From Octopus vulgaris (lineage: Eukaryota), in contig OX597822.1 in assembly GCA_951406725.2 (NCBI GenBank), positions 78,616,001 through 78,680,000 of the forward strand: DNA of 64,000 nt, given 5' to 3'. A program made the translations under genes and the position numbers. Shown piece by piece: positions 1 through 64,000 of this stretch. The notes beneath the pieces were generated by a model. It had not been told where the DNA came from, made no database searches, and saw only the letters and a list, made by a program, of their open reading frames with translations. Within the stretch, counting starts at the first letter, position 1. Each line of letters opens with the position of its first letter.

Positions 1-2894
1 AAACAATGTGGTTGCTAAGTGAGCTTCTTAACCAAACACCCATGCTTGCACCTTGTGGATTTAATAAAAACAATATTTAGTGAGTGACTAATATTGCTGT
101 TTCCTCACCATATAATTATTTCTAGTTAATGTTTTGATCTCCCAACCTTAAATACATGGCAACTTATTTATTAATTAATAAGAGGAGAGGCAAGTTTATT
201 GAATAGGAAAAACACTGTGTGTAAATAGCTATCCTGGAGAAGTAGTACAGTAGGCCACTTTCTGTAGGTTGCAGAAATGTTGTGTAATTTTAGTTCTGAG
301 TCCCAATCTTTTCAGTGAGGGCAGTTGGAAGCCATCCTTTTTCTGTGTTGAATCAATATATGAAGGATTCCATAGTGGTTTATCATCATCGTTTAGTCTA
401 CTTTTCCATGCTTTCCCATTTGTTGAAGCAGATTTTTCTAGAGCTGGATGCTCTTCCTGTCACCAACCCTCACCTGTTTTCAAATAAGGTAATATTTCCC
501 CATGGCCAGACGTGTTTTTCACAGAGGACTGGAAATAAACCACATCACCTGTATGATTGTGATGCTTGTTTAGAACCACCACGTGATGTCTAAGCAAGGA
601 TACATATATTTATGTATCCATACACACACACATACATACTGGAACATATGTATAGAGACATACATGCACAGACATCATTATCATCATCATCATCTATTGC
701 TGGCATGGGTTGGACGGTTTGACAGGAGTTGGCAAAGCCAGGGGCCACATCAGGTTTCATTGTCTGTTAGCTGGCAAAGCCAGGAATCACACCAGGTTCC
801 ATTGTCTGTTTCTGTTTGGTTTCTACGACTGGATGCCCTTCTTCATGCCAGCCACTTTACATAGAGTATTGGGTTTCTTTCAACTTGCGTCTTCTAAATC
901 CACTCACAAGGCTGTGAAAAATGTGTCTGGCCATGAGGAAGTATTACCTTGCTTGGAAACATGTGAAGGTTGGTGACAGTAAAGGCACCCGGCCGTAGAA
1001 AAATCTGCCTCAGTAAATTCTGTCTGATCCATGGAAGCATGGAAAAGTGAACACTAAATAAAGATGGTGACACTGAAATCAAGAAGGGCTGGTCAGCAAA
1101 CATGAACAACAACATCACTTGTTGTTTCTCTCTTTGTTCATTGCTTACTCTGAATGTCACTAAAATCTTCATTTCATTTTTTTTTTATGTATTTATTTTT
1201 CTCCTTCCTTTTTTATAAAGTACTTAGTTTACTTCTGTAAATCTCTGGAGAATTTATGTGTATATGTATGTATGTATGTGGCTGCATATTTGTATGTATA
1301 TTTGTGTGCGTCTGTATGGATATATGTATGTACATGTGTGTGTGTGTGTGTATTTATATTATTGTTTATATTTTTCTTTTACAACTCAGATTTAGTGTGT
1401 TGTCTTCTACTCACAACACTATCATTTACTTTCACTTAATGTATAGTAAATGTAAGTATACCAGTATCACTGCCACCAACATCATCACCATCATCGTCAT
1501 CATAATGGCTTTTAGTATCTTGTTGAGGTTTTTTTTTGTTTTTTTTTTAACCTTGCCACCACCACCACCACCACTGTTACTTCCAACCTCCTTACTTCAC
1601 TACCTTCTAAGTTTCATAACCTCTCCACCACGGCTGTTTAACACATGCACCGCCTCCACTACCCTCTTCTCCGTTTTAACCAAAATTACTTTTATTTGAA
1701 GATGCCATACCAAATGCATAATTCTCATCTCTTGAGATTCTACACTGCTGTTCTTGCTACTCAACCAACCCGTATTCACATACGCCATGTAAATATATAC
1801 GCATACAAGTATGTGTGTGTGCGTGTGCGCGCACGTGCACATTTGTTTACATATATGTCTATGTACTCATAGTTATATGTATTCTACAAGCTTGTCTCAT
1901 TCTTTCATATCTCATGCATAATGGTAGTTGCATGATGTGTGTACCCTTATGCACACACACACACACACACATCAACATACATATATTGTACCTCAGTCTC
2001 ACCTAAATATTCATGCAAGTTGACAACTTCATCATCATCATCATTTAGCATCTGTGTTCCATGCTGGGATGGGTTGAACAGTTCGGTGCTTATCTGGGAC
2101 TAAACTGGCACTCTGTCAGGTACAACAGTGAGGGTTCCAGTTGATCCAATCAGTGGAATAGCCTGCTCGTGAAATCAACATGCAAGTGTCTGAGTACTCT
2201 TCTGACACATCATCATCATTTAATGCTCGTTGTCCATGCTGGCATGGGTTGGACGGTTTGACTGGGCTGGCACGCTGGAAGGCTGCACCAGACTCCAGTC
2301 TGATTTGGCATGGTTTTCTACGGCTGGATGCCCTTCCTAGTACCAACCTCCCTGAGAGTGTAATGGGTGCTTTTACATGCCACCAGCACAGGTGCCATTT
2401 GTGTGACACCAGGGTGCATTTACGTGCTACCAACACAATTTGCATGACACTGGTACCTGCCACAACTGCAATTTTGCTCGTGTGCACTTAACATAGTTCT
2501 CAGGGAGATTCAGCATGACACAGAATGTGAGAAGGCTGGCCCCTTTGTAATTACAAGTACAATTCATTTTTGCCAGTTGAGAGGACTATAGCAGCAGGAC
2601 ATAAAGTGTCTTGCTCAAGGACCACCAGAAATCAAACACACAGCTTCACAATCATGAGTCAAACACCCTAACCACTAAGCCACTTGCCAACCACAGGCAT
2701 ACAGAAATACATAGGACTACAAAGGGTTATAGCAATGTCCAGCAGTTACACTGCACCCCATGTGCCTTTTCTGTCGCCAAACATGTAATATGGTTGGTAG
2801 AACATACAATTTCAATGGTCCTCAACACAGTGTAGGCATTAGCATAACTGGACTGACACATCTTTGAGTTACACAAGCCATTTGGCTGACTAAC

Positions 2895-3595
2895 CTGCAG
2901 AGGACCGATCAGGTAAAGGACCTGGGTATCTTGGTGGATTCCTCCTTTTCGCCTTCGGCCCAGTGCGTCCATGCTGCCAACAAAGCACGCGGAATTCTGT
3001 TCTTGATTCAACGGTCATTCGGAATGCTCACAGCAGCCATATTCCTACCACTCTATGTCACGCTGGTGAGACCCATATTGGAGTATGGGATTCAAGCCTC
3101 TTCTCCTTATCTCCTCAAAGACATACAGCATCTCGAAAGAGTCCAGAAGCTGGCTACCCGCATGGTGCATGGTCTCAAAAATTTGTCCTACGAAGAAAGG
3201 CTGAGGACGCTCGACCTTTATTCTCTTGAAAAACGCCGCCGCCGTGGTAATCTCATTCTCGCCCACAACATCATAAGCGGAAAGTGTAACCTCTCGAAAG
3301 AGCTGTTCTTCACTCCTGCTCCAGAGCGTCAGCTGCGGGGTCATTCCGAAAAGCTCTACCTGCGACGATTTCATCTCAATCGAAGGAGAGGAGCTTTCTC
3401 CGTCCGGGTTGCGGATCCGTGGAACAAGCTGCCAGACGAGATGGTGAAGATGCCGACGACTGCTTTGTTCAAAGCCTCCCTGGACCTCAAGTGGCCTGAA
3501 CTCTTTACATGAACACCACCCTGTACTTAACTCCATGTCCCCCTACATGGCCTTGCTTTTGCTTTTGAGCCAAATTAACTAACTAACTAACTAAC
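2895..3595 (+). mobile_element. 5'-truncated CR1/L2-clade LINE: C-terminal ORF2 (post-RT) segment, 3'UTR and (TAAC)n tail
   Basis: Open frame LQRTDQVKDLGILVDSSF...LYVTLVRPILEYG...LERVQKLATRMV...LSYEERL..L.L.SLEKRRRRG...RGH...FS.RV...WN.LP, stop at 3510-3512. These motifs are typical of CR1-clade ORF2 C-termini. It ends in ttaactaactaactaactaac. Confidence 0.9.
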
Positions 3596-34718: not shown

Positions 34719-35542
34719 ATATAGGTTGCAGTGAAGTGAATAAGCTATCATCTGAATTATGCACAAACTTACCAAAATTACATAAAAACATCTTGAAATA
34801 CTAAAAAGTAAATTTATTCAATAAAATCACCATTGGCTTCAACCACGGACTTCAGATGACTTCGGAATCTGCTGCATCTCTTCTGGACGAAACTGATGAA
34901 TACTGCCATAATCCTAGCCATCAGTTTAGCTTTGGTATTGCAAGGAGTTTTGTTGGTCTCTTGCTCAACTGCACCCCACACATAATAATCAAAGGGGTTG
35001 CAGTCTGGTGAGTTAGGTGGCCAGATGTTAGGGGTGATGTGGTCACAGAAATTGTCTGACAGCCATGACTGGGATCTCCTGCTTGTGTGGCATGGTGCCA
35101 AGTCCTGTTGCCAGACATAGGGTCTTCCAGCAGGTACCCTCTTGATCCAGAGCAGGACTACCTTCTCCAGGCACTTGATGCAGGCGGCCGTGTGGGAAGA
35201 TGAATGAAGGTATTACGTCACCATCACTAGTGACCACTCCAAACACCATGATGTTGACAGAATGTTAGATTTTTATCACTCTCAGTACATGTCTTCAGAT
35301 TGCACTGTCCTCAGGTTGACACTCAAACACTCTGAAATGTTCATATTGGATCTTCCGGCGTGAATGGCAAGCTGTACAGCATGTTGTTTCCAAATTTCTG
35401 GCAGAGTGAATTGCATCATGGTGCTGTTTTTCTCACAGACTGTGCCCTACTGACCCTACTATACGGTGTAATCAACAAAATCAATAACAATGCGCAAAAT
35501 TTAGAATATAAAATGGCAACAGTTTGTCCATAGCACCTTGTA
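34719..35542 (-). mobile_element. Tc1/mariner superfamily DD37D (maT) transposon relic, internally deleted and frameshifted
   Basis: N-terminal HTH-like MMQFTLPEIWKQHAVQLAIHAGRSNMNISECLSVNLRTVQ from 35419; MVFGVVTSDG; VWQQDLAPCHT...WPPNSPDCNPFDYYVWG with 37 residues between the 2nd and 3rd Asp. Decayed TA-flanked TIRs. Confidence 0.88.
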
Positions 35543-36222: not shown

Positions 36223-36427
36223 ATGGAGACATCAGAGCTGTCACCACCACACGTAAACCACCCACTTCCACAATTAATGTTTAGAACCACAGTGTTCCCA
36301 AACAATATAAGCATGAGCCCAAGTCGGAGGCCTGCACGCTGTGCCAAGATTGATTACGACTACACAGTCATTCCAGCTGTGATATGTTCCATGTGTTTTC
36401 TCTTTGGAATTGTCTACACATTCTTTG
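36223..36427 (+). CDS. TMEM198: TMEM198 coding exon 1 (N-terminus and first TM helix)
   Basis: METSELS...C.....Y.VIPAVICSMCFLFGIVYTFFG matches vertebrate TMEM198 (PALVCIMCCLFGVVYCFFG, recalled). Phase-1 donor G|GTAAGT at 36428. Confidence 0.92.
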
Positions 36428-39400
36428 GTAAGTTTACTAATTGACCCTTATCTTGTCCCTTTATTTGCCTATCCTTTTTCTTCTTGTTTTTCTTGTTCTC
36501 TCTCTCTTTCCTTTGCTGTCTCTTTCTTGCTGTCTTTCTCTTACACTCTCACCCTCTCTCTTGCTCTCTCCTTCTACCTCTTACTCTCTTTCCCCCTATG
36601 CCCTCTCTCACACGCATTCTGCTTTGGTTTGAGTTTTTGGTCTTAAGCTTCCATTCTCACTGCTTTCCATTTCCCTAGCTGACTCATTCTTATACCTTGT
36701 GCATGCACCCCCAATTTACTCATCTTCCTTCATCACCATCACCATATGTCATACCCATGGGTATGACAGATATCCTCCACCACTGGATTTTGAGATTTGT
36801 TGCAATCCTTTGTTATCTTCTTGAGCTCCTTTTATCCAGATATCCTTCATCACTGCTTTCTACATCTCCTTTGGACTACTTCTTCTGACAGCTCCTTCTA
36901 CTTGGATCACTTGATCCTTCATCATCAGCCCCTACAAAAAGAGGACACAATAGAACTTGTTCTACAGAAGATCTCCTGGAGCAATAATACAAACTCACCC
37001 AAACACAAAGGCATTGTCTATAATTCAAGACTCTGCCTGCAGATTTTATTCCTCAATTTTAAGTAAAGATGGGCTATACAGTTGAGAAGGTTGCTTCCCA
37101 ACCAAATGTTTCTGGGTACAGTCCCACTGCATGGCACTTTGGGCTTGTGTCTTCTGCTATAGCCCTGGGTTGATCAATTCCTTGCGAGCAGATTTGCTTG
37201 ATGGAAACTGAAAGAAGCCATCATCTGTGTGTGTGTGTACCTTTGTCTTAATATCACATGGTAGTTGTAAAAAAGTATCACTGTCATACAAGTAAGGTTG
37301 TTCATTCCCAGTGTTCTGTGTGAAATATTACTTTACTTGGAAACAAGTGAGAACTGGTGACAGGAAGGGGCATCTTGTGGACTACCATTTTAAATTGAGT
37401 TTCTTCAAGTTCTGAGTTCAAATTGCTCCTAGGTTGACATTTGATTTCATTTCCTCTTGAATCTACCATCATCATTATCACATTAATGTCCACTTGTCCA
37501 TGCTTACATGGGTCAGACAGAATTTATTGAGATAGATTTTCTATGGCTGAAAATTGTTTCTAAGCAAGGTAATATTTTCCCATGGCCAGACATGATTTTG
37601 CAGAATACTGCAAATGAATGATGCAGCTTTGATTAACAGTGACAACCATTTTACAACAATCACACAGTGTTGAAACAAGGAGACACACAAGAGAATTCTT
37701 TCAGTTTCTCCTTACCAAATTCACTGAGAAAGCTTTCGTTAGTTTGGGGCTATGACAGAAAACACCTGCCCAAGGTGCCATACAGTGAAACTGAACCCAG
37801 GACCATGTGGTTGGGAAGCAAACTTCATAACCACACAGCTGTGTCTTACTTAAAAATAATTAAAGATGGGTGTTGGGAAAGGCATCTGTCTGTAGAATAT
37901 TACTTCAAAAAGTTTTATATTACCCGGTTGCTCTCAACCAGGGTCCATGTAAGATTTTTTTGTTAAAATTTATTTGCAATAAAGTGGTTTTATTTCTACA
38001 AGGCACAAAATATTTTAACAATTTTTTTTTATACATTTCCTAATAATATTTAATTATAAAACTGCAATAGGGTCTTTTTTAAACATTGAATGGTTACGAA
38101 GGTCCATCCAAGTAAAATAGGAATCTAAAGGGTCCATAGCTAAAAAAAAAAGGGTTGAGAACCATTGGTGTAACCCATCCAAGCATTCAGAAGAAGACAT
38201 CAAATGGTGATGTGTTCTTCTGGAGATTTTTATGCAAATTGCTGGAGCAGTTATCCTTTACATTAAGATGATGCTTACCACCCTCTACTTTTTATTTTTC
38301 TATTTATCCGAGTTGAAGATTACTTTTTCAGATCTTGTATCTTGTTTTGCATTTTTTTGTCTGTAGTTGTCCTCCCATCGTTTCTTTCCTTGTCTATCCA
38401 TAATCTCAGCTTTAAATTTAAGCCTGACATAATTTATAACAATAGAAACCATACATACAGCTGTCAGCTGCCCCCATGACATCACAAATGTTATAAATAG
38501 GTCCCAGCAACTGGGTTGTTGTTGTTGTTGTTGTTATTATTATTAAAATAAGTACCAGTTAGGTACTGGGATCGATGTAATCAACTGTCCCCTTCCCCCA
38601 AATGTGAGGCCTTGTGCTTCTAGTAGAGTATATTATTATTATTATTAAGGTGGCGAGCTGGCAGAATTGTTAGCATGCCAGACCCAACATTCGAAAGGAG
38701 CTTAGCCACTTTGCCTCCGTGAGACCCAACACTCAAAAGGTGTTTCTTATGTGCTACTGGCCTGGGTGCCAGTTATGTGGCACTAGCATTAGCCACAACT
38801 ATGATTTCACTTGGCTTAGTCTTAAAGGAAATAAACCAAGAAATAACACTTAACTTTAATCTGTTATCTTGTACATGTTCCAGTTGTTGTGCTGTAGTCA
38901 TGTTGGGACTTGAACTGATTGATCCCAGTCCTTATTTTTTAAGTCTATCAGTTTCTTTTGTTGAACTGTTAAGTCATGGTAATGTAAACAAACCAACAAC
39001 AGTTCTCAAGTGGTGGTGGGGGGGGGAGAAATAATAATGGTAATGATTGTGAATGAATACCACTCTCTTGAGAAATTTGTTTTATCAGTTCTTTGTTTTT
39101 TTTGTGTGTGTGATTAAAGAATGATATTAGGTTTTAGACACAATGTTTGGGTACAGTACCTCTGACATTTAACAGTTCTGTTGTCAGTTTGACTGTTCTT
39201 AACCCTCACACCGTTTTCTAAAACAGATCTGATGGCTTATGTTATGCCTCTGACCGTAGTTTCATACAGATGGATTTGAAGCCTCTTTTGTCATTCATTA
39301 TCCTCCTCATCATCATTTAACACCCGTTTTCCATGTTGGCATGAGTTGCATGGTTTGACAGGAGCTGGTAAACCAAATAGCTGCACCAGTTTCCAGTTGT

Positions 39401-41449: not shown

Positions 41450-42013
41450 GTTACCGATTCTTCAAGGCTGTCATGTTCTTAACTGGTTTCATCTTTGGCA
41501 CAGTGGTTGTATATATAGTTTGTATAGAAGAGACAGTATTGCCGAAAGAAGCAAACATTGGCATTGCAGTGGGTGCCGGCATAATCTGCGGACTAATTAC
41601 CATGTTGGTCCAGTATGTTGGACTTTTTCTGACCGGATTCCACTTTGGCGTCGGTCTCTCGACCGGAGTGTTGGTCACAGTGGACCAGTTCTATAACATT
41701 GCCAACAAATGGATACCAATCGGTGTTCTCATTGGTGTTGGTATTTTATTTGCGCTGCTGACTCTCAAGTTCCAAAAGGCAGGCACCATTCTCGGTACAA
41801 GCGTCTTTGGTGCTGCCTTGATGGCGATTTGCCTGGACTATTTTATAGAAAAATTCCTGATCGTGAACTATGTGTGGGAGTGTATCAAAGTGGAGGATTC
41901 TGACCCTCCCTGTTGGTACAGCTGGCTGATTCTCGGTTGCTGGCCTTTCTGTTTCCTTGTAGGCTCCTTGACCCAGTGGAGAATAACAGGACAGAGCGCA
42001 GACCATCACGAAA
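41450..42013 (+). CDS. TMEM198: TMEM198 coding exon 2 (DUF4203-type multi-pass TM region)
   Basis: Acceptor tttcAG|GT completes Gly, giving GYRFFKAVMFLTG...VGLFLTG...DYFIE...CWYSWLILGCWP...QWRITG..DHHE. 564 nt, phase 1 to phase 1; donor A|GTAAGT at 42014. Confidence 0.96.
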
Positions 42014-51953: not shown

Positions 51954-52006
<53 letters not shown>

Positions 52007-52870
52007 ATAAAATGTGTACTTACATATAAGAGAACAAAGTGCATGTACACCGCTAAAGTGGACATTAAACAAAAAACGAACGATATATATCTAGCTTAGC
52101 CTCACTCCAGTCCCAATTGAGCTGATCTCATTTATTCCAACTCTGACTACCTCAACCTTTTCTGATGCTGATGGGGGCATGGTGCACCTAGGATCACATC
52201 ATTTAATGTGCCTTTTACAAAGAGACTTGATTTTAAAGGAGAGTTGATTACTGTTTCTAGCAGATCAAGCAACCGCATAGACTCTTTCATACGTTAAGTG
52301 GGAATGTGTATAGGAAGGAATGTCTCCTGAAAAGCATCAGAGGTTCAACTGATTGTAATGTCTTGTAAAACACAAAAATAAGATAAATAACAGTCTGGAA
52401 GATATTAATTTATCAAATTTCTTTTTTTAAGTAATTAGTGTCTCATTAATGATTTAAAATTTTAAATGGCAGTATAAGAAATAGAAATTCATAATGGTGA
52501 AATGTTAACAATGTGTGTGTTTAGTAATGACATAATGAACCTCCTGAGAGGCAACACAATCTGTTTCAATACACAAATTCACATCAAGAACTTTGCAAAC
52601 CAATTCCAAAAAGTGTTGAATAAGAGAGAAAAGTTTCTGAGTGAATTTAAAGATGTAATGGCAGGGATGCTCGTTAACGAAAATAGAGTTTTGGTATTTG
52701 AAGGGTTAATTGAAAGCATTTGTTAATGAGTGAGTTGTTCAAAATGTTGGCTTTGCAGAATGTTGTTGGATTGCGAGAAAAAAATGAATTCTATGAGTAA
52801 CTGTATTTTCACTTTTTTTTCTAAATTTTTGTTATTTGTGTAAGTATTATTGCATTTCTTTACTCTTTAG

Positions 52871-52933
52871 GAGTACATAGAAATAATGTCTCATCTGCCA
52901 AATATCGGTCTCCGAGCTCTGATGAAGTTGATG
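52871..52933 (+). CDS. TMEM198: Candidate 63-nt symmetric (phase 1-1) TMEM198 exon: (R)VHRNNVSSAKYRSPSSDEVD(G)
   Basis: tgcatttctttactctttAG acceptor and G|GTAAGA donor. It is open in the phase set by exon 2 and is a higher-complexity island in an AT-rich intron. Confidence 0.65.
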
Positions 52934-53034
52934 GTAAGACTTTGGTTTGATTGCATCACATGTGTTTATCCTAGTAGCATGATGCATGCAACCTCAATTA
53001 TATATATACATACATACATACATTCATGTATGTA

Positions 53035-53079
<45 letters not shown>

Positions 53080-53333
53080 CCTTTTCCTCCAAAATCCTTT
53101 GTGCCTCTGTTGATGATGTAATTGTAGCTTATTTTCCTGCTTCTGTTGTGACAATTTGAATGTTTTTAATGTAAATATTTTCTCTTCGTTTTCCATCCTT
53201 TATGATTTATTTAACTCTTTTTTTTTGTGCAGCTTTGTGTGTTAAACGATTCTATTCATAAATTTTCGAGGAGTAGCTTAGTGTTTTATGTAAATGAGTG
53301 TGGTGAGTGAACCACATCCAGGTTTATCTGTCT

Positions 53334-53564
53334 CAGTGGTTCTCAACAATTTTTGCCTATGGACCCCTTTGATTCTTATTTTATTGAAGTGGGCCCCCCA
53401 TAGTCACTTGACACTTTGAAAAATCCTGTTATATTTTCATAATTTAATATTAGGAATTGTATAAAGAAAAATTAAATTATTTCGCATATTGTAGAAGTAT
53501 AATAAGTTTATTGCTCATAAATTTTAACAATAAAATCTTACATGGACCCGGCTGAGAACCACTG
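53334..53564. mobile_element. hAT-type MITE
   Basis: TIRs cagtggttctca / tgagaaccactg; an inverted sibling lies at 53944-54192. Confidence 0.7.
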
Positions 53565-54771
53565 ATCTAAGTTTACAAATATGCTTAACCTACCAGCACA
53601 GCTCAAGAAATTGACTGGCTTGAATAATGTCTGACTGTACTGGTCCAGCCAATACATTTCTTATCATGCATTAACCATGCCTCTGATCACATTGAGTGAG
53701 CAGACACCTCTTGTGTCTTGCTACTCTGGTCTAGTACACATCGTTTTCTGCATTAATCTATTGCAGTGCTGCGTAACATGATCCACACCAAAGTTATGGT
53801 GACCTGTGGCAAGTTTTTTTGTCCTACAGTGTTGCATAATGCACTTAAAATCTCCTGTATATTTGGTGATCTGTGAAGTATTTTTTTGTGAATTTTATGA
53901 ACCACCTGATGCAAAAGGTTATGTATCACTGATCGCTTTATATCAATGGTTCTCAACCAGGGTCCACGTGACCCCTGGGGTTCCATTCCATATAAGGTTT
54001 TAGTGTTAATGTTTATATCCAATAAATTAGTTACAGCCTTAGGGCTGAAACATGTAAAATACAATTCCTAGTAATAATTAATTATAAAAGTATAATGGGA
54101 CTTTTTTAGAACATTGAATGGGAATGAGAATCCTGCAGAGTAAAATAGGATTCAAAGGGGGTTAATAAACAAAAAATGGTTGAGTAACATTGATCTATTG
54201 AATATATCCCTGATCACATTGGTCTGTAAGGCATGTCCCTGATGACCCTAATTTTAAAACATATTTTACTGTTTATTATTTTATTGGTTTAAGGCAACAA
54301 ACTGGCAGAATTGTTAACACTTGGACAAAGTGCTCAGCAGTATTTCATCTGGCATTTTATGTTCTGAGTTCAAATCCCAAGAGGTCCACTTTACCTTTCA
54401 TCCCTTTAGGGTCAATAAAATAAAGTATCGGTCGAATACTGAGGTCAATGTAAATGACTTGCCTTGTCCCTGCAAATCTGCTAGCCTTGTGCTAAAATTG
54501 GAGAGAAAAACATTATCTTATTGGATTCAACCAGTATGTAGTGACCATGCTGGGGTCATAAACATTTATATCACAGGCTTGTTATATCTTCACTAGTCTA
54601 GGAAAAATAAAATATATATATATGCTGAAGCACTGCCTTTTAGCTGAACAAATCAAACCCAGGACTTATTCTTTTGGTCTCTTTTGCTGAACTGCTAAGT
54701 TACAAGGACGTAAACACACAAGCATTGGTTGTCAAGTGATGGTGAGGGGACAAACACAGTCACACAAATAA

Positions 54772-54835
<64 letters not shown>

Positions 54836-55181
54836 GATGGGCTTCTTTCAGTTTCCATTTACCAAATCCACTCACAAGGCTTTCATTGGCCCAAGGCTAT
54901 AGTAGAAGACACTTGCCTAAGGTGTCACAAAGTGGGACTGAACCTGGAGCAATGTGGTTGGTAAGCAAGCAACTTATCACACAGCCTAAATAAGTTGTAT
55001 TTTTTTATAATTTGTGCGAATTAAATTGGGTATTATTCTTCGCCTTGAAGGTTTGGTTAAACAAATCGATCCCTGTACATATTTTCTTTTCAAACCTGGA
55101 ACATATATTATCAGTCTCTTAGGCTGAACCACTAAGTTACAGAGATGTAAGCAAACCAACACCAGCGGAGAACAAACACAA

Positions 55182-55246
<65 letters not shown>

Positions 55247-55436
55247 CTGTATTTGTCCCCACCACCATCGCTTGACAACTGCTGTTGGTGTGTTTACGTC
55301 CCCATAACTTGCGGTTTGGCGAAAGAGACTGATAGAATAAGTACTAGGCTTACAAAGAATAAGTCCTAGTGTCAATTTTGTTTGACTAAAGGTAGTGCTC
55401 CAACATGGCTGCAGTCAAATGACTGAAACAAATAAA

Positions 55437-55474
<38 letters not shown>

Positions 55475-58400
55475 AAGTGAGAGAGAGACATTGGGATTAC
55501 TTCTAGTTTCTGACTACCAAATCCACTCACAAGGGTCAGCCCGAGACTATAGTAGGAGACATTTGCCTAAGGTCCCACACAGTGGAACTGAACCCAAAAC
55601 TATGTGGTTGGGAAGCACACTTCCTACCAAAAAGCCACATATGCTCTTATATTATTATCTTCATCATTTTAGCACCCAGTTTTCCACACTTGCCCAAGAG
55701 GCTTGTCCAAGGTACCACACAGCAGGATTGAACCTGGGAGACCAGATGGCTGGCAAGAAAGCTTCTTAACTACAAAGCCATCCAGGGTTTAAAATTGTGT
55801 AGTGATTGTCGTTATTGTTGTTAGTGGGGTAGGCTGAAGGAATGTTTCTGTAGATATTAGAGGGGAGACATAATTAATATTCAGCTGCCTTCAGAAATGG
55901 AGTTAAATGTTTTACTTATGTTTACTTTGTAAATTTCCCTGCTTGTTCTTGATGTTGTTGTTGTTGTAGTTGTTTTAAGATTTTAGTTTTTATTTGATTT
56001 TTCTTTGTAGCAGTAGTGTTTTGTTTCTCTTTGCAACATAAATGAAAATATGGCCGTTGCCTGTTGTTTTTGCCACAAATTTGAACACTTAACTTCCTCT
56101 TCCCCCTCCTTTGTCTTCGCATCTTCCAGATTTGTTTTTCTTCTGCAAATAGTTTATCCTGCCCTGTTGTTTTGCATGTGAAGGAAAAGGGAGAGATTCT
56201 TTGAAAAAAGATTTTAAAATAAAAAAGGGGGGGAAAAAAAACAGTCATATAAAAGCAGAAACACTGGTAAAACTTTCTGTTTGAATCTCCCCCTCTTTCC
56301 CTATTTCTTTCTTCCTCACCCCTCCTCTTCTCTCTAACTGATATTTTGTGATATGTCAAATCTAGGGAGTTACACATGGTGTCAGAATGCTAATCCCAAG
56401 AGACCCGGCCCTCTATGTGTGTGTGAATGATAAAATATTTTACTTTGCCCTTCCTTTAGCTAGAAATCTAGTACCAATGGGATTTTTTTTTCTATTTTTT
56501 TAATTTTTTTACATATCCACCAATAAAGAAGAAGTAATTTTAAATCAACAAGGAACTTCTATATGGATGCTTTTTCTGTTAGAAATAGTAAGCAAGTCTC
56601 TCGGTTCACACTCCACTGGTTTTTAAAAAAGACAAGTATTTAGTAATGGCCCTTTATATTTCTGAGCTCAAATCAGAAGTTGGCTTTGCCTTTCATCCTT
56701 ATGAAGTCTGTAAAATAAGGAAAAAAGTCAAGTGCTGGATTTTAGATGTGAATATGTGAAGGCGTTTAGCCTAGTGGTTAGGATGTTGTACTCATGGTCT
56801 AGTGACTGTGGGTTCAATTGCTGGATTGAGCAGTGTATTGTGTTCTTGAGCAGAACACTTCATTTCAGCTTGCTCCAGTTCACTCGGCTTTAAATGGGTA
56901 ACCCTGTGACAGGTAAGTGTTCCATTCAGGGAGATCATTGGCTTGCCCGCTAAGCCAGTGGGGTACCATCATTTGAACAATACAACAATCCAAAGAAAGT
57001 GTATTGTAACTCGCGGTGTGTAACAAACATCCAATAATCTGGTGGATACAGTGATGTGTGAATATGATTATAATAGACTACATGTTGGATAACATAACCT
57101 AAAATACTCAATGACTGCAGTAGAAAACACAACACAAAAAGATGGGATAGTCATGGCTGGAATATCTTTGATTATAGGTCTGCTTACTTAAAGCTGTTCT
57201 TTGACTAACCAACAACAATCTATTTTGTATTTGTTGTGGTTACCTGTGGGCTCTGTTGAGGGCCATGTAGTTGAATACACTCACACAAAGTGCCATGCAG
57301 TGGAACTGAACACGAAATCATGTGGTTGGGAAGCAAACTTCTTACCACAGAGTCATGCCTACACCAATATTAAACCAAAACTGTATAAGGTATTATAATC
57401 ACCAGTTTGAAAAAGTATAGAGCAAACAGGCCAGTGATGGGACTCAAACCACCCCAGGTGATTGTTATGTATTGGTTTCAGGCCTGCAGTGAGTCTGTTG
57501 CATTGAAAATTTTAGTTGTCAATTCCCAATATTAACCCTTTTGCATTCAGATAATTCTTTCAAATCTTGCATTATCTCACAGCTTCAAGATCTCAGTGAT
57601 GTAATTGTTTATTTTTAGAATGGCATTGTAGGGTAAGTTTGAGAGATCAGATCTGACCAGATTGAACATAAAACAGATAAGGATATTTTGGCTGTATATG
57701 ACCAGTTTAAATACTAAAGTGTTTTACTGGTTTTTACTTGAAATTACACTAGTGGGGGAATATCTTTGTTGCTTCTCCTTTTAAATTTAGTACAATTGTA
57801 ACCACAACTTCAAAAAAGGAGAAATTTGAAGGGGAAGTGTATGGTGATGGCATTGGTGGTAGGGCTCACTGAAATTCAGTGATCTTTTAACCTTTTAGCA
57901 TTTAAACCAGCCATACCTACTTGTTTTATGAGAGGTCAGATCCAGTCTCTCATATCTATCTGACAATGCCACTCTAAGAATAAACCATCACATCATCAGA
58001 ATTTCAAAGCTACAAGTTAATGCATAATTAATTCAAAATCTAGCACACGAGAGTTCCATTTGATCTGATCAATGGAACAGCCTGCTTGTGAAATTAACAT
58101 GCATGTGACTGAGTACTCCACAGACATACATACACTTAACCTAGTTCTCAGGGAGATTCAGCATGATGCAGAATGTGACAAGACTGACCCTTTGAATTAC
58201 AGGTACAACTCATTTTTGCCAGCTGAGTGGACTGGAGCAACGACAAATAAAGTGTCTTGCTCAAGGACACAGTGCACCGCCGGGAATCAAACCTATGATT
58301 TTATGGTTGTAAGCTGAATACCCTAACCAGCAAGCCACATGCCATCACCTGATTAATTCAAAACAGTGTGAATAAATAGGCATTACGTTTGACTGTAATC

Positions 58401-59088
58401 TGAATGTTAAAGAGTTAAATGCTGTGTCTATATGACATTCACTAAAAAGTCACTAGTTCCTGTACAACAACAGCAAGAGGTTCTTTTGAGCTGTGCAGCA
58501 GAGGTATGTGTAGCTATTTAGTAATTACTATTGCCTCCATTAACCAATCCTCTACGTGGTCATTTGACTTACTAGAAGTAGCAGCCAAATTTTCAGTACC
58601 CATCTTTCATCTTTTACTTGTTTCAGTCATTTGACTGCCCCCATTCTTCTGGAAGAATTTTTTTGGTTAAATAAATTGACTCCAGTATTTTTTGCTTTTT
58701 TTTTTTTTTCCAAACCACTAAGTTACTGGGACATAGATACACCAGCACTGGTTATCAAGCAGTGGTGGAGGACAGACACAAACACACAATATATGTATGT
58801 ATGTATATATATGATGGGTTTCTCTCTACCAAATCCACTCTCTAGGCTTTGGTCAGCCTCATGGTTTATTAGAAGTCATTTGCCCAAGTGGCTACACAGT
58901 GGGACTGAACCTACACTATACCGGGCCATTTTTGATCTTAGGTTTACTCGGTTAGGTCTAAACAGCAAGCAGGTCACTATTAAATATGGCTTTCATGTAA
59001 GACTAAAATTACAGTTTACTTCTATCAAACTTCTTTCATAAAATAGGGCAGCCCCCAACAAAAGAATAGAAAAATGTATAGGTGTAAG

Positions 59089-59313
59089 CAGGGCTGTGGA
59101 GTCGAAACAAAAAACTCCAACTCCTCTTTATGTAATTAAGTGATTGTGGTCTACGTATTTCATAAAGTATATGTATATGCTTGTACTTTGAGTAGGCTTA
59201 TATGTCAGTAAAGATATTGTGAGTCGGAGTCGGTATAGTTTTACCGACTCCAACTTTAGCTACTCCTTAATCGTTTCCAACTCCGACTCTACGACTCCTA
59301 CACCACAGCACTG
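59089..59313. mobile_element. hAT-type MITE with perfect 8-bp TSD
   Basis: ggtgtaag|cagggctgtgg ... ccacagcactg|ggtgtaag with internal (ccgact)n subrepeats; same family as 42846. Confidence 0.85.
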
Positions 59314-60537
59314 GGTGTAAGCATGGTTATGTGGTTAAGAAGCTTGCTTCAAAACCACATGGTTTCAGGTTCAATTCCACCAGACAGCACCTTAGGCAGG
59401 TGTCTCCTACTATAGCCCCAGGACAACCAAATGCCTTGTGAGTGAATTTGGTAAATGGAAACTGAGTGGAAGCCTGTCGTATATATATGTGTATGTGTTT
59501 GTCCACCACCACTACTTAACCAGTGTTGGTTTGTATTTTTCTCCTTTAACTTAGCAATTCGGCTAAAGAGACTGAGAATAAGTAGCAGGGCTCAATAAAA
59601 TCAATACTGCAGTCAATTCGTTTGACTAAAACCTCTTAAGGTGGTGCCCCAGCACAGCCACAGTCTAGGGATTGAAACAAGTGTAAAATATGAATGATAC
59701 AACTGTTAATGTCTCTCAACAGTGCTGCTGGAATCCTGGGCATGGCTTCATCTGAAAGAAACTGTGTGGGTGAAAGCAGATATAATGGACCAATTATGAA
59801 TTATATGGCCAAGAAAGAAGCAAACATGATAATGTCTCCACCTCGAAAACCGCCCCCCCCCATACCACCCCTACGTCTGTCATAATCAGAGATGACTAAA
59901 CAAACTTTTGAGTTGCTTAGTCTACATTACTTTATAAGGAACACAGGGCTGGTTTCTCTGACACACACACACATATTCCTCCCTGGATGGGACACTGATC
60001 CATCACAGGGTTACTCATTTTGGCCAGCTGAGTGGACTGGAGCAGTGTGAAATGAAGTGTCTTGCTCAAGAACACAATACATCTCCTGTTCCAGGAATTG
60101 AAACAATAATCTTACAATCATGAGCATAACACCCTAACCACTAAGCCCTACACCTCTGCAACTAAGTTGTTTAGGGCTTCCATTTGGGGGAGGGAAGGAT
60201 TCATCAGGCTAGTTACCTGGTTTCTGTGGTCTATATGTGACCAAGATCGCAACAGTACCCCTAAACAGTATGCTAGTCTGTTGCAAGATTCAAGGCCAGC
60301 AGATTTTGAGGGCGGGAGCAGCAAGCTGATTGCGTCAACATCCAATTCCTTCCCCAGTACTTGACTGGTACTTTATTTTATTGATCTTGAAGGAACTTAG
60401 GGTAAAGTTGACCATGGCAGGATTTGAACTCAGAATGCCAGAGTGCCAGAAGAAATGCAGCTAAGCATTTTGTCCAACACAGATTCTGCCAGCTTGACAC
60501 TTTTCAGTATTATATACTTCTGCCTTTTTTTGATCAG

Positions 60538-63313
60538 GATTTTGGTGTTGTCGAATATTCCGTCATTTTGGTCAACAAGGAACAGAGCTTGGCTCATTAC
60601 CAGAACAAACGAAGACACCTTGGTTTTCAGATGGGAAAAATACTACCAGCAAATCACTCTCAAAGATATACACACCACAAGGTTCTTATACTGCAACCAT
60701 CAATACTTTTAAATCACTTGTTGGAAAAAATGGGGTAGAAGCATCCCTTGCAAGGGCAAGCATCACCCAGGGTTTGTTTGGGGCAACAGGCTATGTAAAG
60801 GAGTCACCTGTAAGAGTAGATATATCTCGTGAGGTTTTTCCAAGAGCACACCTCAGTATGAATTCATTTCCCAGGTTAGCTTTCAATCAAGACTCATCTG
60901 CTGTGACAGGTTCCATTGGTGGCACTGAAGTTGACTCAGAGTCACTTGTTGGAAAAAGACATAACCAAGATTCATTTGCTGGGACAGAAAGCAACCATGG
61001 CTCCTTTCCTGGAGTAGAGTTTGCCCAGGCATCAGTTTTTGGAACAGAAGGTGACCAGATGTCGTTTGTTGTAATGGGCAGTGGGCAGGGATCTCTCAGT
61101 AGGGCAGAATCGTTTGAGACAGATTTTGACAAGAAATCCAATTTGGGGATTGACTTTGACCAGAGGTTACGTGCTAAGGCTGATTATGACCAGAGGTCTA
61201 ATACTGGTAAAAATGTTGATAGGGGGTCTTATTCGGGTACAGACGTTGAGCAGGGTTCTTATTCTGATACAGACGTTAATCAGAGATCTTATTCTAGCAA
61301 CAATGTTGATTGGAGATCTTATTCCGGCACTGACGTTGATGAAGGATCTTATTCTGGTACAAACGTTGACCAAAGGTCTTATTTTGGTACACATGTTGAC
61401 CAGAGTTCTTATTCTGGTACAAACGTTGATCAGGAGTCTTATTCTGGTACAGACGTTGATCAGGGGTCTTATTCTGGTACAGACGTTCATCAGGGGTCTT
61501 ATTCTAGTACAAACATTGATCAGAAGTCTTCTGGTACAGACGTTGATCAGGGGTCTTATTCTGGCACAGACGTTGATCGGAGGTCATATTCTGGTACAGA
61601 CGTTGACCAGAGTTCTTATTTTGGTGCCGACGTTGACCAGAGTTCTTATTCTGGTGCCAACGTTGACCAGAGTTCTTATTCTGGTACAGACGGTGATCAG
61701 AGGTCTTATTCTGGCACAAACGATGATCAGGGGTCTTATTCTGGTACAGACGTTGACCAGGGATCTTATTTTGGTGCCGACGTTGACCAGAGTTCTTATT
61801 CTGGTGCCGACGTTGACCAGAGTTCTTATTCTGGTACAGACGGTGATCAGAGGTCTTATTCTGGCACAAACGATGATCAGGGGTCTTATTCTGGTACAGA
61901 CGTTGACCAGAGTTCTTATTCTGGTTCAGTTGTTGACCAGAGTTCTTATTCTTGTACAGACGTTGACCGGAGTTCTTATTCTGATACAGAGGTTGACCAG
62001 AGTTCTTATTCTGGTTCAGACGATGATCGGGGTCATATTCTGGTACAGACGTTGACCAGAGTTCTTATTCTGGTACAGACGTTGACCAGAGTTCTTATTC
62101 TGGTACAGTTGTTGACCAGAGTTCTTATTCTGGTTCAGTTGTTGACCAGAGTTCTTATTCTGGTACAGACGTTGACCGGAGTTCTTATTCTGATACAGAG
62201 GTTGACCAGAGTTCTTATTCTGGTTCAGACGATGATCGGGGGTCATATTCTGGTACAGACGTTGACCAGAGTTCTTATTCTGGTACAGACGTTGACCAGA
62301 GTTCTTATTCTGGTACAGTCGTTGACCAGAGTTCTTATTCTGGCACAGACGGTGATCAGAGGTCTTATTCTGGCACAGACGATGATCGGGGGTCTTATTC
62401 TGGTACAGACGTTGACCAGAGTTCTTATTCTGGTACAGACGTTGACCAGAGTTCTTATTCTGGTACAGTCGTTGACCAGAGTTCTTATTCTGGTTCAGTC
62501 GTTGACCAGAGTTCTTATTCTGGTACAGACGTTGACCGGAGTTCTTATTCTGGTACAGATGTTGACCAGAGTTCTTATTCTGGTTCAGTCATTGACCAGA
62601 GTTCTTATTCTGGCACAGATGTTGATCAGGGATCTTATTCTGGCACAGATGTTGATCAGGGATCTTATTCTGGTACTGACGTTGACCAGGGATCTTATTC
62701 AGGTACAAATGTTGACCAGAGTTCTTATTCTGGTAGTGCCATTGACCAGGGGTCTTATTCTTGTACAGATGTTAACCAGAGCTCTTACTCTGGTACAGAC
62801 GTTGATCAGGGGTCTTGCTCAGATACAGACGTTGATCAGGGATCTTACTCAGGTACAGACATTGATCAAGGATCTTATTCTGGTACTGACGTTGATCAAG
62901 GGTCTGATTCAGGTACCGACGTTGATCAGGGGTCTATTTCTGGCACAGACCTTAACCGGAGGTCTTACTCTGACACAGACGTTGATGACAGGTCTTACTC
63001 TGGCTCAGACGTTGATAATGGGTCTTACTCTGGCACAGACATTGACGACGGGTCTAATTCTGGTACAGAAATTGATCAGGAGTCTAATTCTGGTACAGAC
63101 GTTAAGCAGGGGTCTTATTCTGGTACAGACGTTGACAAGAGGTCTAATTCTGGGACTGATTATGACCAGAAATCTTTTGCTGGGACTGACTTTGATCAAG
63201 AATCATTTGCCAGAACTAATTATCTCAAAGGGTCATTTTCTGGCACTGATTGCAGCCAGGATTCATATGCCAGTACAGACCAAAGATCGTTTGTCAGTGC
63301 TTTTTATTATTAG
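60538..63313 (+). CDS. Large terminal coding exon with SYSGTDVDQx decapeptide repeats; probable alternative last exon of TMEM198 (one 1-nt deletion at 62029-62032)
   Basis: Acceptor ctgcctttttttgatcAG|GA (phase 1) lies just after an in-frame TGA. The frame reads (G)FWCCRIFRHFGQQGTELGSLPE... into the ORF-track 60774 frame. With one G restored the repeat frame stays open to ...DQRSFVSAFYY-TAG (63311-63313). Unit variation is largely synonymous in this frame. Confidence 0.72.
61140..63285 (+). repeat. 30-bp coding minisatellite, ~70 units, consensus TCTTATTCTGGTACAGACGTTGACCAGAGT
   Basis: Direct 30-bp periodicity with a homogeneous centre and degenerate edges; one in-frame 27-bp unit at ~61521. 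Confidence 0.97.
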
Positions 63314-64000
63314 AACTTTACTCTTTCTGACAATAACAGGAGGTCATTTGTAAGCATGGCTGTGGAGCACACACTGCTCTGTTTGTAGGAAGTAGTATCT
63401 TTTGTGCTCTTTGTAACAAGGTGATGGTTAAAATCTTATATAAAATAGCAAACTTCAAAAGCATGTTGTTAACACTGAAAAGGCATGAACTGATATTGGA
63501 GATTTCTGACTAATCGTTCCTTGTTTTAACCTTTGCACTCACTCATGTGGTTCTGATTTTTATATTGATTTTTTTTTTTTTTTTATTGGTGATTTAATTA
63601 ATTTATTCATATAATTATTGCATTCTGTCTCCTCACCTCCACACCTAATTGTTATCTCCTTGAATTCTAGCTGGCCATTTATTGTGTATCGTGTATCTTT
63701 TAATCCTTCAGCATTCTGATTACTCTGTCAAATGCAATACTTATTTATCAGGCATAATCTTGTAGCTTCAAGATTTCAAAGATGTGTTTGTATATTTTTA
63801 GAATGACATTGAAGGGTAGGTGTGAAAGGTTGGATCTCATTAATTTTATTATGAACCAGATAGAATGTTTAGGGCCAACTATGACTAGATTAAATGCTAA
63901 AGGGTTAAAATAGATGAATGGTAGTATAACAGCAGACATATTGATTTGAAGCCAGACACTACCTGGTCACAGACAATAAATTAAGTATCTATATATATGT

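What the first reader, a model, noticed from the sequence alone, without database searches (positions are those of the whole stretch)
61220..63160. SYSGTDVDQx repeat: dense casein-kinase consensus array with regularly spaced [G/S]-S-Y-S-G tyrosines
Seen: each unit has S-x-x-D and T-x-x-D (CK2 consensus), D-x-x-S (CK1 consensus) and one Tyr in SYS every 10 residues, in a strongly acidic, low-complexity context. Established: [G/S]Y[G/S] motifs drive condensation of FUS-family low-complexity domains, and TMEM198 recruits casein kinases. Inference: a membrane-tethered, phospho-tunable condensate or kinase-sink scaffold for Wnt signalosomes. A beta-solenoid or Ca2+-binding repeat is an alternative.
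Basis: inference. Interest (0 to 1): 0.7.

Follow-up and report, generated by a model that had tools for sequence, protein, structure and literature searches.

The report
Hidden acidic repeat exon in octopus
Inside an intron of the octopus TMEM198 gene lies an unannotated stretch of about 2.8 kb that has evolved as protein-coding DNA for a ten-residue acidic repeat and could give this membrane protein a very long alternative tail, but one missing base breaks it in this sequence and nothing shows that it is expressed or acts in Wnt signalling.

Summary
The repeat is real: a 30-bp unit (DQSSYSGTDV), 67 copies, in Octopus DNA. It is not the known TMEM198 tail. The window's TMEM198 exons match a 339-aa O. 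sinensis protein, whose conserved tail exons lie outside the window, so the array is intronic. The locus still carries a coding signature: synonymous excess in the SYSG frame (p about 0.004, also downstream of the break), degenerate stop-free flanking units, and a strong phase-1 acceptor at 60537, in frame with all three TMEM198 donors. No database protein or paper matching it was found. Best reading: an unannotated alternative last exon that swaps TMEM198's basic 82-aa tail for a ~924-aa disordered polyanion. It may instead be dead or belong to another gene. The condensate and kinase-sink idea is poorly supported. CK sites come easily from this composition and are lost in older units, along with SYS. 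Net charge (-0.15 per residue) exceeds that of phosphomimetic FUS, which does not phase-separate. AlphaFold2 gave no confident solenoid.

The parts
36223..36427 (+). TMEM198 first coding exon (69 codons incl. first TM helix); phase-1 donor GT at 36428
   Evidence: tblastn 100% to O. sinensis protein P0002 residues 1-69; boundary
41450..42013 (+). TMEM198 main transmembrane exon (PF13886), phase 1/1
   Evidence: Pfam E 4.9e-37; 100% to P0002 residues 69-256; boundaries
52871..52933 (+). TMEM198 63-nt cassette exon, phase 1/1; last annotated TMEM198 exon in the window
   Evidence: 100% to P0004 residues 258-277; boundaries
60343..60509 (.). Interspersed repeat (SINE-like by copy number; label inferred) just upstream of the acceptor
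   Evidence: Matches up to 15 other places in the window
60508..60537 (+). Polypyrimidine tract and CAG|G candidate 3' splice site, phase 1, one codon after the stop that opens the ORF
   Evidence: Crude score 16 (true TMEM198 acceptors 17 and 16); 3 of 690 AGs in 52975-63900 score as high
60538..61217 (+). 5' part of candidate exon: 226 stop-free codons, charge-neutral, with degenerate 10-residue units from about 60675
   Evidence: Stops by frame 0/9/16 on +, 15/6/9 on -; 15 of 16 any-register profile peaks in 60675-61218 are in this frame; charge
61218..62029 (+). Core array, first half (about 27 units), with one in-frame 3-nt deletion near 61515
62026..62030 (+). 1-nt deletion in a G run; frameshift (assembly error or recent lesion, undecided)
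   Evidence: 4 G against 5 G in sister units at 62234 and 62384; frame change
62030..63313 (+). Core array second half and 3' degenerate units, 427 codons in the SYSG frame, ending at TAG 63311-63313
   Evidence: synonymous excess in SYSG frame p=0.004, none in the shifted frame
63335..63364 (+). One further degenerate unit in the same frame beyond the stop codon
   Evidence: Profile peak in the SYSG frame; translation
63975..63980 (+). AATAAA, possible polyadenylation signal (weak evidence in AT-rich DNA)

Best explanation
An unannotated alternative last exon of octopus TMEM198, built from an expanded 30-bp coding minisatellite. Shown: it lies in a TMEM198 intron, has evolved as coding sequence in the SYSG frame, and begins at a strong in-frame acceptor. 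Inferred: when the acceptor at 60537 is used and the transcript ends behind 63313, the multi-pass membrane core keeps its N-terminus and helices but loses the conserved basic 82-residue cytoplasmic tail (net +10). It gains about 924 residues, of which about 650 are a disordered Ser/Gly/Asp/Tyr polyanion. This needs the -1 base at ~62030 to be a homopolymer assembly error. The tail would most likely act by bulk physical properties, as a membrane-anchored acidic brush or spacer that binds cations or basic partners and whose length changes by unit duplication. The isoform would be tail-switched and probably signalling-dead, not a better Wnt scaffold. Incidental CK2/CK1 phosphorylation is plausible but would only add repulsion.
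For: Intronic position and gene identity. Coding signature: 114 changes on a minimum spanning tree of 48 distinct core units fall 41/20/53 on codon positions 1/2/3; 42 are synonymous against 29.8+-4.3 expected with the same mutation spectrum (p=0.004). The only other frame of six with an excess is the antisense frame that shares third positions and has a stop in every unit. Downstream of the break p=0.004 (36 units) and 0 of 1500 draws (41 units) in the SYSG frame, p about 0.95 in the shifted frame. No stop in 22 diverged edge units: neutral P=0.0008, or 0.012 for the 15 clearest. Five spacing changes are multiples of 3 (18, 45, 27, 24, 57 nt), one is not. Acceptor; phases. Disorder: FoldIndex -0.26 to -0.29, pLDDT 49 and 34. 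Tail charges. The canonical tail is matched by 67 of 89 named homologues.
Against: No transcript evidence was available. No protein matched the flank among 2386 and 3917 candidates (30-1644 aa), although O. sinensis, O. bimaculoides and Argonauta TMEM198 proteins are in that collection. None of the best 150 phmmer hits has more than 2 SYSG. The frameshift is in the sequence as given. The first half alone is not significant (p=0.065), and without the CpG columns p=0.023. Counting distinct substitution types shows little difference (12 of 20 synonymous, 33 of 67 non-synonymous). The TRVLILVQTL frame is also stop-free across the core (p=0.03), so openness alone proves little. The 5' edge shows no codon-position bias (0.51/0.54/0.49). 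Phase agreement has a 1-in-3 chance rate, the splice score is crude, and the spanning tree only approximates the array's history.
Confidence: 0.4

Rival explanations
1. A dead or dying exon: it was coding, but the -1 deletion is real and the exon is no longer spliced or is degraded.
For: Frameshift in the sequence; a further unit lies beyond the present stop, which suggests truncation; no annotated protein.
Against: Only 1 disabling change in about 924 codons, and it sits in a homopolymer inside a tandem array, where long-read assemblies err (general knowledge). The recently duplicated, near-identical units hold no stop, and the acceptor is intact.
Confidence: 0.22
2. The last exon of a different product: a nested gene with its own upstream exon (possibly a secreted, acidic, Ca2+-binding or structural protein), or a splice from TMEM198 exon 1 alone, giving a single-pass protein whose helix is followed by FWCCRIFRH (Cys pair and basic residues, like a palmitoylated juxtamembrane segment).
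For: The same coding signature and acceptor. The exon-1 donor is also phase 1. The juxtamembrane look of the first residues is read from the sequence; the motif knowledge is recalled.
Against: No ATG-to-strong-phase-1-donor mini-exon was found in 52936-60500 (crude scan). The ORF has no hydrophobic segment (best 19-mer 0.67). The first in-frame ATG (60858) lies 108 open codons into the ORF, which argues against a single-exon gene.
Confidence: 0.2
3. One reading: a membrane-tethered, phospho-tunable condensate or casein-kinase sink for Wnt signalosomes.
For: The motifs are present in most core units. Vertebrate TMEM198 recruits CK1 to LRP6 (PMC3278829, PMC8494741, PMC12157921; passages). An in-frame splice is possible.
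Against: Polyanionic before phosphorylation, unlike FUS LC. CK sites are common for this composition. SYS and CK sites are lost in older units. The exon would remove the conserved tail. No Wnt evidence in octopus was found.
Confidence: 0.06
4. The repeat folds as a pentapeptide-like beta-solenoid or cross-beta rod, with Tyr and Val alternating every five residues in the core.
For: A hydrophobic or aromatic residue at the pentad centre in 57 of 60 and 53 of 60 core pentads, and 11 of 15 and 9 of 15 edge pentads. Sub-threshold Pfam Pentapeptide_4 and Decapeptide matches. phmmer matches to DotG/IcmE decapeptide repeats (E 4.9e-7) and designed pentapeptide solenoids. AF2 draws strands.
Against: 0 of 120 core pentads meet the consensus given in PMC8145042. 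pLDDT is at most 49, although AF2 tends to over-call solenoids on repeats (PMC11795689, abstract). No Foldseek match at E<=0.001 (low-confidence model).
Confidence: 0.07
5. A non-coding intronic minisatellite whose open frames are chance.
For: Two frames are open across the core; intronic; no protein in databases; the window holds 53 tandem-repeat rows.
Against: Frame-specific synonymous excess, stop-free diverged flanks, in-frame spacing changes, and an acceptor at the ORF start.
Confidence: 0.05

Closest known systems
TMEM198 (PF13886 TM7S3/TM198-like)
   Same: Host gene; three exons in the window are 99-100% identical to octopus RefSeq proteins; the candidate exon is in frame with its donors.
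   Different: Named homologues of 330-796 aa carry no such repeat (0 of 89); the canonical tail is short, basic and conserved (67 of 89).
FUS-family low-complexity domains
   Same: [G/S]Y[G/S] motifs, Ser/Gly/Tyr/Gln-rich, predicted disordered.
   Different: FUS LC is nearly uncharged (PMC5641905); this repeat is 17-19% Asp with Val and Thr, net -0.15 per residue, and strictly periodic.
Pentapeptide-repeat proteins (Rfr fold) and decapeptide repeats such as DotG/IcmE, PF25296
   Same: Five- and ten-residue periodicity with a hydrophobic centre; weak sequence matches.
   Different: The centre is Tyr/Val rather than Leu/Phe; Pfam scores are below the curated cut-offs; no confident fold.
Alternative last exons and coding VNTR arrays (mucin- or neurofilament-tail-like disordered repeats; comparison recalled, from no call)
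   Same: A homogenised core with degenerate edges, weak amino-acid constraint, and frame kept through unit gain and loss.
   Different: No sequence relationship; expression not shown.

Membership tests
Annotated TMEM198 protein sequence | Repeat region present in a known TMEM198 protein | tested here: not met
   0 of 89 named homologues match either half; search covered 329-2000 aa, 120 of 128 hits listed
TMEM198 alternative last exon | Same strand, inside the gene, acceptor in phase with upstream donors | tested here: met
   position of the downstream tail exons beyond 64000 is inferred from their absence in the window
TMEM198 alternative last exon | Spliced, polyadenylated transcript | not testable with these tools
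   No RNA-seq or octopus genome collection on hand
Protein-coding exon | Uninterrupted reading frame | tested here: not met
   -1 deletion at about 62026-62030; may be an assembly error
Protein-coding exon | Purifying selection in one frame | tested here: met
   p=0.004 core; first half alone p=0.065; without CpG columns p=0.023
FUS-like prion-like LCD | [G/S]Y[G/S] motifs | tested here: met
   52 of 60 core units; 0 of 15 edge units
FUS-like prion-like LCD | Near-zero charge | tested here: not met
   Net -0.146 and -0.164, charged fraction 0.22, against 2 acidic of 163 (PMC5641905)
FUS-like prion-like LCD | Phase separation | not testable with these tools
   Needs a bench assay
Pentapeptide repeat proteins | At least 8 contiguous pentads of the consensus with central L/F | tested here: not met
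   0 of 120 core pentads and 2 of 30 edge pentads fit the wider consensus (consensus from PMC8145042); Pfam 32.7 bits against cut-off 38
Pentapeptide repeat proteins | Right-handed quadrilateral beta-helix | tested here: inconclusive
   AF2 pLDDT 49.3 and 33.8 on shallow self-alignments; Foldseek no match at E<=0.001
CK1/CK2 multisite substrate | Consensus sites above what composition gives, kept across units | tested here: inconclusive
   Present; within-unit permutation P=0.12; largely lost in edge units

The most novel reading that the evidence does not exclude
Octopuses evolved, by expanding a coding minisatellite inside TMEM198, a switchable last exon that flips the cytoplasmic tail of a Wnt co-receptor scaffold from +10 to strongly acidic. 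The long isoform binds the basic tails of the canonical isoform, casein kinases or Ca2+, forms heterotypic membrane-bound assemblies, and tunes LRP6 activation by repeat number in a tissue that current annotations missed.
Probability: 0.1. Interest if true: 0.72.

Novelty: new variant of a known kind. Interest (0 to 1): 0.42.

Why it matters
If expressed, this is a lineage-specific ~900-residue extension of a conserved membrane protein that octopus annotations have missed, probably because it is repeat-masked and frameshifted in the assembly. It would be a clean case of a new domain born from a minisatellite, with old and young units side by side, and a natural tail-swap allele for asking what TMEM198's conserved tail does. 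If it is not expressed, it is a decaying exon of little consequence. One RNA-seq look-up separates the two.

Tried and rejected
Homologue searches with the non-core flank: none at 516-1644 aa (2386 candidates) or 30-515 aa (3917 candidates). phmmer of the second half against 1.84 billion representatives: 2254 hits at E<=0.001; the best 150 are generic repeats (period a multiple of 5 in 150 of 150), 4 of the 25 top rows printed contain SYSG and none more than twice, so I rejected them as orthologues. Bacterial or phage origin: 0 exact matches of the unit pattern in GTDB genomes, no tblastn match in 50,697 phage records; the array is flanked by octopus interspersed repeats. Structured RNA: 0 Rfam matches in 52000-64000. 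Other copies in the window: none upstream of 59500. TRVLILVQTL frame as the real product: no synonymous excess. Antisense frames: broken by stops. AF2 twice and Foldseek once: uninformative. Residue-shuffle nulls for motif counts were rejected as invalid for tandem copies. The exon-1 donor score printed used a position off by one and is not used. Left open: the sequences of RefSeq isoforms X1 and X3 (cluster look-up could not be made), an ESM Atlas comparison (not available for this sequence), metagenome and viral contig collections (unchecked), and the primary TMEM198 paper (Liang et al. 2011, not held; known here only through three citing papers), so the part of TMEM198 that binds casein kinase is not established here.

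Full report
Observation. The region holds a 30-bp tandem array at 61187-63195 (67.1 copies, 83% matches) with consensus DQSSYSGTDV. Tyr recurs every 10 residues in 52 of 57 intervals, and the consensus contains two CK2-type sites, one CK1-type site and SYS. Only 30 of 60 indel-free core units keep all four features. The frame is broken once: at about 62026-62030 a unit has four G where its sister units at 62234 and 62384 have five. As sequenced, the ORF from 60534 moves into a hydrophobic TRVLILVQTL frame and the SYSG frame resumes as a separate 428-codon ORF.

Context. The window is Octopus DNA. Exons at 36223-36427 and 41450-42013 are 100% identical to the O. sinensis TMEM198 protein P0002, and a 63-nt cassette at 52871-52933 matches O. 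bimaculoides P0004. The remaining 82 residues of P0002 have no credible match in the window (best tblastn E 1.3). I infer that they lie beyond 64000 and that the array is inside a TMEM198 intron, between interspersed repeats. Of 89 named TMEM198 homologues (330-796 aa), 67 match the canonical tail and 0 match either half of the repeat ORF. So this is not the annotated tail.

Is it coding? Several tests say it is or was. On a minimum spanning tree of 48 distinct core units, 114 changes fall 41/20/53 on codon positions; 42 are synonymous in the SYSG frame against 29.8+-4.3 under a null that keeps each base change and moves it to a like base (p=0.004). Of six frames, only the antisense frame sharing third positions shows the same, and it has a stop in each unit. 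Downstream of the break the excess is in the SYSG frame (p=0.004), not the shifted one (p=0.95), so the deletion is either an assembly error or recent. Degenerate units extend to about 60675 and 63300; 15 of 16 and 8 of 9 any-register profile peaks lie in the SYSG frame (the profile included the seven edge units nearest the core). The 226 codons before the core have 0 stops, against 6-16 in the other five frames, and neutral decay of the consensus to the observed divergence leaves no stop with P=0.0008 (22 units) or 0.012 (the 15 clearest). Five spacing changes are multiples of three and one is not. Against this: the first half alone gives p=0.065 and removing the CpG columns p=0.023; distinct substitution types differ little (12 of 20 against 33 of 67); the TRVLILVQTL frame is also stop-free in the core; the 5' edge has no codon-position bias. 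Constraint on amino acids is weak, as in disordered repeats.

Which gene? The ORF opens one codon before a pyrimidine tract and CAG|G at 60536-60538. By a crude score this AG ties or trails only two others among 690 in 52975-63900 and equals the true TMEM198 acceptors. Among 68 strong AGs in the window it has by far the longest open frame. It is phase 1, as are all three TMEM198 donors. The first in-frame ATG is 108 codons downstream, and no plausible separate first exon was found in 52936-60500. The simplest model is therefore an alternative last exon. A splice from exon 1 alone, or from an unknown exon, remains open. No transcript data were available, and no protein database entry exists for the flank or the repeat, although octopod TMEM198 proteins are in the collection searched. 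That absence is the main evidence against current expression.

How it would work (inferred). TMEM198 is described as seven-pass with a cytoplasmic tail that scaffolds CK1 and LRP6 (PMC8494741 and PMC3278829, passages; PMC12157921, passages, which also place it in the ER; the primary paper was not held). The octopus canonical tail has 15 basic and 5 acidic residues in 82. The alternative has a neutral 226-residue linker and about 695 residues at -0.15 per residue, predicted unfolded (FoldIndex -0.26 to -0.29). Using the exon would delete the conserved tail and anchor a long polyanion at the membrane: a brush or spacer that may bind cations or basic partners. FUS-type self-condensation is unlikely. 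FUS LC has two acidic residues in 163, and adding 12 charges abolishes its phase separation (PMC5641905, passages), a charge this repeat exceeds unmodified. The kinase sites arise in 12% of within-unit permutations. In 15 older edge units none keeps [GS]Y[GS], 3 keep S-x-x-D/E and 4 keep T-x-x-D/E, while Ser4 (14 of 15), a hydrophobic residue at position 5 (11 of 15) and Gly7 (10 of 15) persist.

Fold. The 5-residue hydrophobic spacing gives sub-threshold Pfam pentapeptide and decapeptide matches and weak matches to DotG/IcmE and designed pentapeptide solenoids. But 0 of 120 core pentads meet the published consensus (PMC8145042, passages). Two AF2 runs on shallow alignments of the window's own segments gave pLDDT 49.3 and 33.8, although AF2 tends to over-call solenoids on repeats (PMC11795689, abstract and outline). 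Foldseek found nothing at E<=0.001. A solenoid or cross-beta state is not excluded but has no support.

Novelty. Full-text searches found 0 papers with TMEM198 and octopus, 1 unrelated listing for three unit motifs, and no relevant title among 12 of 21 listed for cephalopod decapeptide repeats (listings only). These cover open-licence PMC and bioRxiv only; supplements were not searched. No match was found in GTDB genomes, phages or Rfam. The element looks undescribed, but it is of a known kind: a candidate alternative last exon built from a coding VNTR. Verdict: a real, probably once- or still-coding repeat exon; TMEM198 fusion plausible and untested; Wnt condensate mechanism unlikely. Interest 0.42.

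Noticed in passing
window 61075-63353 (+1 frame): The alternative frame (TRVLILVQTL) is also stop-free across the whole core; if the frameshift is real, the product would end in about 440 hydrophobic residues (GRAVY +1.26).
   Followed up: partly
window 61051 and 61207: Phase-1 donor-like sites (AAG|GTGACC, CTG|GTAAAA) inside the flank could turn 60538-61050 or 60538-61206 into an in-frame TMEM198 cassette exon that skips the core array.
   Followed up: no
window 63314-63391: The SYSG frame holds one more degenerate unit and reads on to a second stop after the TAG at 63311, which suggests the ORF once ran further.
   Followed up: partly
window 61545-62563: Higher-order duplications of five-unit (150-bp) blocks in the core; identity peaks at lag 5, a sign of recent unequal crossing-over.
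   Followed up: partly
window 2868-3512 (+): 214-codon ORF that reads like the C-terminal end of a LINE reverse transcriptase (label recalled; no Pfam match).
   Followed up: no
window 34817-35212 (-): Remnant of a DDE (Tc1/mariner-like) transposase, Pfam DDE_3 below its cut-off, about 1 kb upstream of the TMEM198 start codon.
   Followed up: no
window 52871-52933: The 63-nt TMEM198 cassette exon is conserved in Argonauta and cuttlefish proteins (95% and 82% identity), so this intron region is already alternatively spliced.
   Followed up: partly
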